The notes beneath the pieces were generated by a model. That model saw only the letters and a program-made list of their open reading frames with translations. It had not been told where the DNA came from and did not search any database. From the human T2T-CHM13v2.0 reference genome, Homo sapiens, in NCBI RefSeq assembly GCF_009914755.1, contig NC_060946.1: DNA of 64,000 nucleotides. One strand, given 5' to 3'. Each line of letters begins with the position of its first letter. Position 1 is the first letter of the stretch. The translations under genes and the position numbers were made by a program. Below are positions 47,715-50,814 of the stretch, in pieces.

Positions 47715-49388
47715 TAATTTCTTCAATGTTCCAATTGTCTTGAGATCTGCAGTCTCCCCTTTGCTTCCAGTTTAGCCTGAGCATGATTTGAGGGTCACTT
47801 GCCTCCAGATGCAAGTGTCCGGCAGGCACCCCCTACCCTGTGGCACAGTCCAGTGGGGACAGCTCTTCTGGGCTTGGGCCTGCCCCTCTTGGCCAGGTGT
47901 GGTGGTGAAGGGAGGTGGAGACAAGCCACATTACCTGGGCCCTTCCCTGGATGGGACACAATGCTCTGTGCTTGCCCCCACACCAGCTAGACGTTAAGGA
48001 GGCTCCCTTGGGGTCTGAGTCCCAGGATCACCATGCACCAAGTCATATGACTTTGGGAAAGCCACCTGCTCCCAGGCCTCAGTTTGCTCGTCTGTGAAAT
48101 GGAAGGGATGCTGGCATTTCCATCAGCAGTGTTGCAGGGATAGGATAGAAGAAGATAAGCATTTGGGGCACTTAGCAGAGCACATGGTAGTCACAGTCAT
48201 CAGTATTGTTTCCTTTAATTGCAACTCCTAAAATCAGGGATCCAAGGGACCTCAAAGACACACCCAACGTCTTTGGCCTCAAACTGGGAACGGTTGTGTT
48301 ACCCCTTTCTCTCACTCTCGTGGGCCCCCTGGCTCATCTCCATGCTGGGGCATTCTCTGGGCATCGCGAAGGGCACGACATTACTCCCTGGCATTTGCAA
48401 AGTTGTTTGGCATGGGTGCGGCATTTCACTGTGTACAGGCCCCTTCCTCTGCCCAGTCCATACCTACCCCTCACGTACCTCTAGCGCTTTACAGTTTATA
48501 TGTCATGCAGCATCTGCTGGGCTTAGGATGCCGACCCATGGTTTACAGAGCACACGGAGGCCCGGAGAGCCACAGGGAGCCCGGGGAGCCATGCGGGCCC
48601 CAGGCTTTGCCTCTGGGCGGCCCCACGGGCGGTGGTGCGATTCTGGCTCGGCTCCGGTCCCCTCGGGCTCTACCTTCTTGTGCTCCCTCTGTGTCCTGCG
48701 GAAGATGAAGTCTTCCTGAACGAGGCTCGGGAATGCTGCCACTGTTCAATGAGCTAATGGTGAAATTGGAAACTCAAGGGCTGGAGGCAGAGAAAAAAAA
48801 AAAAAAGACAAGCTTTGATTCACAGGCAGGAGAATGAGTGAATGGGGAAAATTCATCCTGCGGTCATCAGAGGAAATGCCTGGGTGGCACGTCCCTCGTC
48901 CTTCGAGCAAAGTCTCTCCTGGAGAGGGGAAGGTCATGCAGGTGGCAAGCTCAGTGGCCGGCGGTGGCTGAAGCTGGGACAGGGAGGCGAAGGAGTGGGC
49001 TTGGGGCAGACAGACCTGGGCTCCAATCCCAGCGCTGCTGCAATAGCCACCGTGCCACCCTCACCTGGGAAGCAGGGTGATGGTGGGTGTTACCTCAGGG
49101 GTCCCCTAAGCAGAGTAAGTTAGCTGGTAGAAGATGGGCACAAAATAGATGCTCACAAAATAAAAACCCCTGGAAGCTTCTCTAGTAGGCCAAAGTGGAG
49201 ACAATCTACTGTCTCTTTAGAAGAGGGGTTAAAATCTGTCAGCTGCCTCCACTGGTCCTGAGTGAGTGATTGAGCCATTTCGACAGCCTCGGGTCTGATT
49301 TCTGGTGTTGGGGTAGTCAGCTGGAGTCATGACAAGGTTTCTAGAGGTAATCACTCACATTACATTTAGAATGAGCCGCTGGGCCCAC

Positions 49389-50016
49389 GAGATGAGCCAC
49401 TGGGCCCAAGAGAGAGAGGGAAAGGGTAACACAACGATTTCCAGTTTGAGGTCAAACACCCTGGGTATGTCTTTGACGTCCCTTGGATCCCTGATTTTAG
49501 GAGTTGCAATTAAGGGAAACAATACTGGTGACTGTGATTACCATGTGCTCCGCTTTGGTTTTAAAATGGTCGGATACATTCTTTTTTCCTTTTGAGACAG
49601 GGTCTCACTCTGTCACCCAGGCTGGAGTGCAATGGTGTGATCATAGCTCACTGCAGCCTCAACCTCCCAGGCTCAAGCGATCCTCCCACCTCAGCCTCCC
49701 AAGTAGCCAGGACTACAGGCATGCGCCACTATACCTGGCTAATTTATTTTTATTTTTGTAGAGATGGGGGTCTTGCTAATGCTGCCCAGGTTGGTCTCGA
49801 ACTCCTGGCTTCAAGTGATCCTCCTGCCTCGGCCTCACAATGCTTTATCTCCTTCTATCCTATCCCTGCAACACTGCTGACAGAAATGCCAGCATCCCTT
49901 CCATTTGACAGGTGAGCAAACTGAGGCCTGGGAGCAGTTGGCTTTCCCAAGGTCACATGGCTTAAGGCACAGTGATCCCGGGACTCAGACCCGAAGGGAG
50001 CTCCCTTAGCCTCTAG
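49389..50016. repeat. Composite local duplication: revcomp(48178-48340) + direct(47388-47676) + revcomp(47987-48165)
   Basis: Manual alignment of each piece; see findings. Confidence 0.93.
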
Positions 50017-50814
50017 GTAATCACACACATGTCTAGCAGGTCACCACAGGCATTCTCATATGGTCTTTTTCATTTCTTCACATGGACTCATTGAGCTGGG
50101 TGTTATGATCGCTGCAGGTGAGGACGCAGGGATCTGTGGGACAGAGACTTGTCCCGGGTCACACGGCTTGCAGATGACAGCACTTGGCCTCCAGTCTGGA
50201 GCTCCTGCCTCCAGCTCCTCGGTGCCTTCTCATACTCCATCTTAATTTGGGAGGAAATGGAATCACCTGGGAGAAGGGGAGGAATGAAATTAGAATGTTA
50301 GCAGAAGAATGTTGTTGTGCCTTGAACAGTTTTAGAATTTCCTCCCAGATCCTTCAGACCGGTGAACTCACCTGCAAACACACTTTGTGATAGGAAGGCA
50401 ATAGGCTGCAGCGAGAAAGTCTCCAACTCACCCGTTTTTTTGTTTAAACTTCAGGTTCCCAAATTAATAGAGGCTTCCTCTGTGTGCTAGGAGGATGCCA
50501 AGCAAGCTTCCCAGCCTGGAACTGGGAGATAATAGTAATTAATGGAGCCAGTTTGGGTGAGGAACCTCAGCTTGTGAGGTAAACAGGAAAAGATTCTGTT
50601 CTGTTTTATTATTTTTTTCTAATAACTGCTCCCCTGTGCTCTGCTGAGCTTCGTTTTTCTTGCTGGGTAGCTGGTTTCCTCTAGGACACTTCATTCTGTA
50701 ACTTTCCAGTCACTTTTAGTTATTAAAAATAACAATCTCATTTTGGTTACTAAGACTCAATCCTGTTCATTTTGAAATGGCAATCTCATATGAAACTGGG
50801 AGCTTCCCTCTGGG

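What the first reader, a model, noticed from the sequence alone, without database searches (positions are those of the whole stretch)
49345..50030. Three-piece mosaic insertion with out-and-back template switch, microhomologies, stutter and flanking direct repeat
49389-49550 is revcomp of 48178-48340, 49552-49840 is a direct copy of 47388-47676 (unique flank plus most of an AluJ), and ~49838-50016 is revcomp of 47987-48165. The first and third donors are nearly contiguous, so this is an inverted duplicate of ~47987-48340 with the Alu-bearing piece spliced in, losing ~10 bp. Junction microhomologies are GCT (piece 1/2) and CAAA(G)TGCT (piece 2/3). The left end has a 21-bp stutter (ATGAGCCGCTGGGCCCACGAG / ATGAGCCACTGGGCCCAAGAG). 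The whole is bracketed by AGGTAATCAC(T/A)CACAT at 49345-49360 and 50015-50030. The middle piece (~95%) is closer to its donor than the outer pieces (~87%), hinting at two events at one site or later conversion.
Basis: partly seen in the sequence, partly recalled or inferred. Interest (0 to 1): 0.75.

Follow-up and report, generated by a model that had tools for sequence, protein, structure and literature searches.

The report
Twice-repaired DNA break scar
A 650-base stretch in a human non-coding gene is pasted together from two neighbouring pieces of DNA, and its uneven ageing suggests it was likely made in two rounds of break repair millions of years apart: a known kind of short local duplication with an unusual second layer, probably without function.

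Summary
The structure is real. C' (49389-49554) and B' (49839-50016) are inverted copies of a contiguous donor (47987-48340). A' (49552-49840) is a direct copy of an Alu plus flank (47388-47676). The microhomologies, 21-bp stutter and 16-bp target duplication are as described. It is a repair-mediated duplication (Pace et al. 2009), a common class: 9 local-duplicate sites in 264 kb here.

New result: the age boundary is not at the piece junctions. The backbone halves next to A' are as young as A' (11/171 and 15/289 mismatches); the outer halves are old (28/172; p=0.006). Eight control duplicates show no such gradient. Best reading (0.45): an old inverted duplicate later broke near its middle and was likely repaired against its inverted donor, resetting about 190 bp and capturing the Alu piece by microhomology priming. 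Rivals: two uncoupled steps (0.27), one step (0.23), RNA route (0.05). The gradient was found post hoc and weakens (p=0.07 against the inner halves alone) when clustered changes are collapsed. No primate orthologues were available; they would decide it. Two more inverted local duplicates lie within 14 kb.

The parts
47388..47676 (+).
47987..48163 (+). Donor B (template of B')
48166..48173 (+). 8 donor bases absent from the copy, between the GCT and CAAA microhomologies
48174..48340 (+). Donor C (template of C')
48009..48213 (+). Old interspersed repeat (MIR-like; name recalled) spanning the B|C junction unbroken, which shows that B-C is the ancestral order
48040..48053 (.). Perfect 14-bp palindrome in donor B, absent from the copy; holds the 3 donor-derived outer changes (caveat for the age gradient)
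49345..49360 (+). Left copy of the 16-bp target duplication
49361..49370 (+). 10-nt filler; no source longer than 9 nt found in 44-55 kb
49371..49412 (+). 21-bp stutter (two units, 19/21 identical) at the start of C'; both units share two bases that differ from the donor
49389..49554 (-). C': inverted copy of donor C; outer half 13/83, inner half 5/83 mismatches
49552..49840 (+). A': direct copy of donor A, 15/289 mismatches; private changes fall on both donor and copy
49839..50016 (-). B': inverted copy of donor B; inner half 6/88, outer half 15/89 mismatches
49468..49950 (.). Inferred young tract (A' plus converted backbone on both sides); edges uncertain by tens of bases
50015..50030 (+). 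Right copy of the 16-bp target duplication

Best explanation
This is a repair-mediated local duplication whose middle is much closer to its donors than its ends, likely because it was written in two rounds of double-strand-break repair, the second being a gene conversion that also captured the Alu piece. Step 1 (inferred, early primate, about 16% divergence): a break at about 49360 was patched by copying 354 bp from 1.0-1.4 kb upstream in inverted orientation, likely by fold-back priming of the resected 3' tail. Synthesis started with a slip (filler and stutter) and rejoined at a short microhomology left of the break, duplicating 16 bp. Step 2 (inferred, ape or catarrhine stem, about 5-6% divergence): the copy broke near its middle. 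The ends paired with the inverted donor 1.2 kb away, resetting about 80-110 bp on each side. One end mis-primed through GCT on the Alu flank 0.8 kb further upstream, copied 289 nt and rejoined through CAAA, losing 8 bp. Shown: pieces, junctions, direction, divergence pattern. Inferred: two dates, coupling of conversion and capture, strand path. Function is likely none.
For: Outer halves 28/172, inner halves 11/171, A' 15/289: outer vs inner p=0.006, inner vs A' p=0.68. Both arms show it separately (13/83 vs 5/83; 15/89 vs 6/88). It holds without CpG sites (19/160 vs 6/160, p=0.011). Distance-from-junction permutation p=0.006, non-CpG 0.013. Transversions 11/172 outer vs 3/460 inner plus A' (p=8e-5). 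Integrating over unknown tract edges, the young-tract model beats A'-only by 6-13 and one-rate by 4-102. The 8 other local duplicates show no centre-to-end gradient (39/514 vs 36/504, p=0.81) (all). A' interrupts an ancestrally continuous repeat. Private changes in the Alu fall on both branches (non-CpG 5 donor, 3 copy), as expected from ageing. A break-centred young tract explains why copying returns to within 8 bp of where it left. Template switching during gene conversion is documented in yeast (PMC12891019, passages) and mammalian cells (PMC5104497, abstract and section 9).
Against: The gradient was seen first and tested afterwards. The scan permutation gives only p=0.03 (tract must span the junction) or 0.08 (anywhere), and 0.06/0.13 without CpG. 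Collapsing adjacent mismatches gives p=0.033; also collapsing the donor-palindrome cluster gives p=0.073 vs inner and 0.017 vs inner plus A'. Polarised outer changes are 6 copy-derived, 3 donor-derived and 2 uninformative of 11, and all 3 donor-derived lie in the palindrome, so excess copy-side error is not excluded. Target duplication plus stutter have only 3 mismatches in 37 nt, 2.4 times likelier at the young rate, though the match-defined ends bias this. Donor and copy would have been about 10% diverged at step 2, which should suppress recombination (general knowledge). Yeast mid-conversion switches need about 200 bp of adjacent homeology, which A lacks. No orthologue was seen.
Confidence: 0.45

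Rival explanations
1. Two uncoupled steps: an old inverted repair-mediated duplication, then an ordinary second one that dropped A' into it by microhomology end joining; the younger-looking flanks are chance or an earlier, separate conversion between the 354-bp inverted arms.
For: A' vs whole backbone p=0.006. Local duplications are common here (9 sites in 264 kb), so one landing in a 354-bp target is not far-fetched (about 1%, hand estimate). The gradient drops to p=0.07 under the most conservative counting.
Against: Bayes factor 6-13 for a shared young tract over A'-only, and 2-16 over separate rates for inner backbone and A'. The comparable uninterrupted inverted pair 56241-56530/58225-58521 shows no central homogenisation (10/146 vs 13/144; one pair only).
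Confidence: 0.27
2. One event (MMBIR/FoSTeS or two-ended SDSA): polymerase copied C, jumped to A and jumped back to B in one pass; the outer arms look older because synthesis began error-prone at each end, or through local rate variation and palindrome correction in the donor.
For: Target duplication and stutter look young (3/37). Outer changes lean copy-derived, 6 to 3. Both stutter units share two non-donor bases, as if an early error was re-copied. Two-donor chimeras are known: 20 of 1136, 5 with both donors local. One-rate is not rejected against A'-only on non-CpG sites (Bayes factor 0.5-2.7).
Against: It needs about 10% excess error over about 85 nt at both ends, above rates I recall for repair polymerases. 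Control duplicates have no excess at their ends (36/504 vs 39/514). The young-tract model beats one-rate by 4-102.
Confidence: 0.23
3. RNA-templated origin: L1-driven reverse transcription of the CACNG2-DT nascent transcript or of the Alu, with template jumps, giving the 16-bp target duplication.
For: A 16-bp target duplication is within the usual retrotransposition range (recalled). The locus is in an annotated lncRNA intron (hub annotation). A' is an Alu lacking its first 40 nt.
Against: No poly(A) or poly(T) at either end (longest A run 4; A or T fraction 0.2 in the terminal 30 nt). Neither end is an A/T-rich L1-endonuclease-type site. A' runs past the first TTTT downstream of the Alu tail. 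Pace et al. found target duplications without tails in 6 of 39 proximal duplications. The order B, inverted A, C does not fit twin priming.
Confidence: 0.05

Closest known systems
Repair-mediated duplications (Pace, Sen, Batzer, Feschotte 2009, PMC2671141; main text parts 1-5 of 8, Table S1 chr22 rows and part 8 of 15 read); the related 'doublets' of Thomas et al. seen only as cited there
   Same: Donor within 5 kb (here 1.0-1.9 kb), 50-619 bp per piece, microhomology 2-9 nt, filler, small deletion, target duplication of 4-21 nt without a poly(A) tail; two-donor chimeras exist.
   Different: Three pieces in donor1-donor2-donor1 order rather than two; two apparent ages with a young tract wider than the inserted piece. 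The paper has 0 occurrences of 'gene conversion'. This locus is not among its 8 proximal chr22 rows.
Template switching during gene conversion: yeast ICTS (PMC12891019, passages) and non-canonical termination of mammalian gene conversion (PMC5104497, abstract and section 9)
   Same: Out-and-back excursion of a few hundred bases in the middle of a homology-templated tract, bounded by microhomology.
   Different: Those are induced breaks in reporters. ICTS needs long adjacent homeology, whereas A is unrelated to B-C and adds sequence. Here it is a fixed germline fossil and the conversion is inferred from divergence only.
Fold-back inverted templated insertions at breaks (PMC11724301, abstract) and TMEJ or template-switch insertions at meiotic breaks (PMC7615360, passages)
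   Same: Inverted copy of nearby DNA, microhomology junctions, size within the roughly 2-kb resection range.
   Different: Yeast fold-backs are mostly 5-34 bp and adjacent to the break; here 354 bp from 1 kb away. No polymerase can be assigned.
Cycles and bridges of templated insertions in cancer genomes (PMC7025897; search listing only, details recalled)
   Same: A string of copied segments that returns to the starting chromosome with a small duplication.
   Different: Somatic, single-event and usually larger and more distant; here germline, sub-kilobase and probably two dates.

Membership tests
Repair-mediated duplication (Pace 2009) | Insertion of at least 50 bp with an identifiable donor within 5 kb | tested here: met
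   for the Alu piece only 40 of 7056 candidates were scored, but the unique flank and 95% vs 86% identity point to the local donor
Repair-mediated duplication (Pace 2009) | Microhomology, filler, small deletion and/or target duplication at the breakpoints | tested here: met
Repair-mediated duplication (Pace 2009) | No poly(A/T) tail of 5 nt or more at the ends | tested here: met
Repair-mediated duplication (Pace 2009) | Acceptor interrupts a pre-existing element (gives direction) | tested here: met
   Met for A', which interrupts the copied old repeat. For the whole insert no spanning repeat was found (best spanning hit E=0.59); direction there rests on the target duplication and stutter.
Repair-mediated duplication (Pace 2009) | Empty orthologous site in an outgroup | not testable with these tools
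   No other primate genome is held (no relatives)
Gene conversion with mid-tract template switch | Tract of raised donor identity flanking the switched segment on both sides | tested here: met
   moderate strength, post hoc (p 0.006-0.08 by test)
Gene conversion with mid-tract template switch | Conversion and capture date to the same event, donor to copy | tested here: inconclusive
   Inner backbone and A' have compatible divergence (p=0.68) but with wide intervals (3-11% and 3-8%); polarisation too sparse
Gene conversion with mid-tract template switch | Extended homeology next to the switch point (yeast ICTS) | tested here: not met
   No alignment between A and B-C in the self-BLAST; only 3-4 nt exact and about 9-13 nt imperfect matches at the junctions
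L1-mediated retrotransposition (TPRT) | Poly(A) tail and endonuclease-type target | tested here: not met
   target motif recalled
L1-mediated retrotransposition (TPRT) | Target-site duplication | tested here: met
   not specific, also seen in tail-less proximal duplications

The most novel reading that the evidence does not exclude
A dated germline fossil of ectopic gene conversion with a mid-tract microhomology capture: an older local duplicate served as its own repair partner tens of millions of years later, and that repair copied in a third sequence. If general, nested insertions inside local duplicates should sit at the centre of reset tracts genome-wide, giving natural measurements of mammalian germline conversion-tract length between roughly 10%-diverged repeats.
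Probability: 0.45. Interest if true: 0.55.

Novelty: new variant of a known kind. Interest (0 to 1): 0.35.

Why it matters
The class is known and common, and the element is probably neutral. What could matter is the age gradient. If it holds, the locus records homology-directed repair between diverged inverted repeats, coupled to capture of unrelated DNA, in the primate germline; the examples I found of such switches come from induced breaks in cells. It also warns that three-piece 'single-event' template-switch structures can be layered events, and it suggests a simple genome-wide test. Predicted side effects: the 289-bp direct pair could seed a 2164-bp deletion and the inverted arms an inversion of the 1-kb spacer. 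Both would cover the annotated enhancer 48735-49234.

Tried and rejected
A second, more similar donor elsewhere in the genome for the outer arms: none (the search skips very common words). A source for the 10-nt filler: best match 9 nt, chance level. A repeat spanning the reconstructed empty site: none below E=0.59. Retrotransposition: no tail or motif. Reverse direction (47-48 kb derived): rejected for A' by repeat continuity. A generic centre-versus-end bias in local duplicates: not seen in 8 controls. A hotspot claim: 3 of 9 local-duplicate sites in 264 kb are inverted and all 3 lie within 16 kb. By hand that is p about 0.01 for inverted only but about 0.2 for all orientations, and orientation was chosen post hoc, so it is not claimed. 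A wider background beyond the 264 kb was not obtained. Absolute dating: 12-15 versus 42 Myr at 2.2e-9 per year, but slower ape rates would roughly double this. In Table S1 part 8, the 60 hominid-specific and 19 catarrhine rows both range 0-14% (read by eye), so 5% does not place step 2 relative to the macaque split. Literature: 8 full-text searches showed, in titles and abstract starts, no description of this locus or of a nested, conversion-flanked local duplication. Subscription papers and long-read SV supplements were not searched. An inverted-repeat survey I wanted as background was not held under the id I tried.

Full report
Observation. BLAST and global alignments confirm three copied pieces. 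C' 49389-49554 is the reverse complement of 48174-48340 (18/166). A' 49552-49840 is a direct copy of 47388-47676 (15/289). B' 49839-50016 is the reverse complement of 47987-48163 (21/177). The repeat finder shows the 15/16 direct repeat at 49345/50015 and the 19/21 stutter at 49371/49392; the former has chance probability about 6e-5. Junction matches are GCT, CAAA (between the donors) and AG or TCTAG; donor bases 48166-48173 are lost. Searches of the window's own genome return the local donors as best hits: A 95% against at most 86% among 40 of 7056 scored candidates, C self and donor only, B donor plus two weak repeat hits.

Direction. A profile built from 165 other copies of an old repeat, with donor and copy masked, aligns without a break over donor 48009-48213, across the B|C junction (E=3e-26), and stops near the A' junction in the copy. 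So B-C is ancestral and A' interrupts it. The donor Alu is complete to about 47715, whereas A' lacks its first 40 nt and carries about 25 nt of flank past the tail and past the first TTTT. There is no poly(A/T) and no A/T-rich target at either end. Family names (AluJ, MIR, LTR internal) are recalled; no repeat library was available.

Class. Pace et al. 2009 (PMC2671141; main text parts 1-5 of 8) describe 824 human repair-mediated duplications with donors within 5 kb, up to 619 bp long. Their breakpoints show microhomology, filler, deletions and, in 6 of 39 inspected proximal cases, tail-less target duplications. Twenty of 1136 were two-donor chimeras, 5 with both donors local. This insert meets the testable features. 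It is not among the 8 proximal chr22 rows of their Table S1 by size, distance or gene; their filter drops repeat-derived acceptors. In 264 kb around the site I find 9 non-tandem local-duplicate sites of 50 bp or more, after leaving out one VNTR and two tandem-type regions. The class is ordinary here.

What is not ordinary. A' is closer to its donor than the backbone is (15/289 vs 39/343, p=0.006), but the backbone is not uniform. Halves next to A' have 11/171 mismatches and outer halves 28/172 (p=0.006); each arm shows it, and inner equals A' (p=0.68). Without CpG-type sites it is 6/160 vs 19/160 (p=0.011). Mismatches lie farther from the junction than permuted ones (p=0.006). A scan for the best tract gives 49468-49950, with p=0.03 if it must span the junction and 0.08 if free. 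Transversions are 11/172 outside and 3/460 inside (p=8e-5). Integrating over tract edges, a shared young tract beats A'-only by 6-13 and one rate by 4-102. The other 8 local duplicates show no gradient (39/514 centre, 36/504 ends). In the Alu, non-CpG private changes are 5 on the donor and 3 on the copy against 13 shared with the 25 closest Alus as reference (22 with all 99), so A' was copied late in the Alu's life.

Against. The pattern was noticed before it was tested. Collapsing adjacent mismatches gives p=0.033, and collapsing a cluster in a 14-bp palindrome present only in the donor gives 0.073 (0.017 against inner plus A'). Of 11 outer changes inside the old repeat, 6 look copy-derived, 3 donor-derived (all in the palindrome) and 2 are uninformative. 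Target duplication plus stutter look young (3/37; likelihood ratio 2.4, biased by how the ends are defined) (all). Recombination between 10%-diverged repeats should be inefficient (general knowledge), and yeast mid-conversion switches need long homeology (PMC12891019, 12 passages), which A lacks.

Mechanism. Most likely (0.45), step 1: a break at about 49360 was patched with an inverted copy of 47987-48340, probably by fold-back of the resected strand. Short fold-back insertions are shown in yeast (PMC11724301, abstract), and human germline insertions within the roughly 2-kb resection range are argued in PMC7615360 (passages). Step 2: a later break in the middle of the copy was repaired against the inverted donor, resetting about 190 bp, while one end primed by microhomology on the Alu flank, copied 289 nt and rejoined. 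Comparable switches during conversion occur in mammalian reporter cells (PMC5104497, abstract and section 9). A break-centred tract explains both the symmetric young flanks and the return to within 8 bp. Rivals: uncoupled second duplication (0.27), single pass with error-prone ends (0.23), RNA route (0.05). The odds are my judgement from the Bayes factors and rough priors. Ages are 12-15 and 42 Myr at 2.2e-9 per year and are uncertain about twofold.

Neighbourhood. Two further inverted local duplicates lie within 14 kb. 58225-58521 is a copy of 56241-56530 (23/290) and splits an Alu (57967-58222 and 58543-58561). 62447-62610 is a copy of 63252-63415 (3/164); the repeat to its left has 26 genome relatives whose matches end within about 5 nt of the insertion point, of 27 non-self, non-donor hits. 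No other inverted pair was found in the remaining 248 kb, but six direct ones were; clustering is suggestive only.

Novelty and verdict. Real; a member of a known class with an extra layer that I did not find described in 8 searches (listings only for most hits; unseen supplements of long-read SV papers could list the locus). The 3 papers that name CACNG2-DT were seen as listings only. No function is indicated. New variant of a known kind, interest 0.35; primate orthologues would settle the order of events.

Noticed in passing
window 58225-58521 (donor 56241-56530): Second inverted local duplication, 23/290 mismatches and a 7-nt gap, splitting an Alu (57967-58222 | 58543-58561), with a filler of about 21 nt that repeats a 9-mer; not in Pace Table S1 chr22 rows.
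   Followed up: yes
window 62447-62610 (donor 63252-63415): Third inverted local duplication, 3/164 mismatches (young, perhaps great-ape specific or polymorphic), inserted in an LTR-internal-like repeat (label recalled); the donor lies downstream.
   Followed up: partly
window 48040-48053: Perfect 14-bp palindrome in the donor that the copy lacks; three donor-derived changes all improve it, on both arms, which may be quasi-palindrome correction.
   Followed up: partly
window 49340-49344, 50012-50016, 50031-50041 and donor 47981-47991: The donor end of B matches both sides of the target: a 5-mer left of the target duplication and 10 of 11 nt right of it. Rejoining at the left match would explain the duplication and allow a 21-bp rather than 16-bp reading.
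   Followed up: partly
window 47667-47680 vs 48168-48180 (reverse complement): The end of donor A resembles the backbone in two registers about 10 nt apart (about 11/13 and 8/9), covering the 8 lost bases.
   Followed up: partly
flanking loci L016-L035 (window-relative -82872, -50507, 130244, 145951, 148490, 151140): Six direct-orientation local duplicates of 53-148 bp, 81-98% identical; three of them lie within 8 kb (145.9-154.0 kb).
   Followed up: partly
window 46026-46145: The annotated CACNG2-DT exon lies inside the antisense Alu at about 45999-46302, so it is probably an exonised Alu; donor A and A' carry similar antisense Alu tails in the next intron.
   Followed up: no
window 2140-3592, 9952-10218, 50804-51226; L019 (window-relative -68735 to -67374): Tandem or low-complexity arrays: an old tandem duplication at about 79%, an adjacent 132-bp pair at 75%, a TG-rich array and a VNTR.
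   Followed up: no
window 57686-58561: Two Alus head to tail, the second starting within the end of the first and then split by the inverted duplicate.
   Followed up: no
window 47987-50016, 56241-58521, 62447-63415: All three inverted pairs would form long duplexes in the nascent CACNG2-DT RNA (computed -275 to -525 kcal/mol); possible editing substrates, untested.
   Followed up: partly
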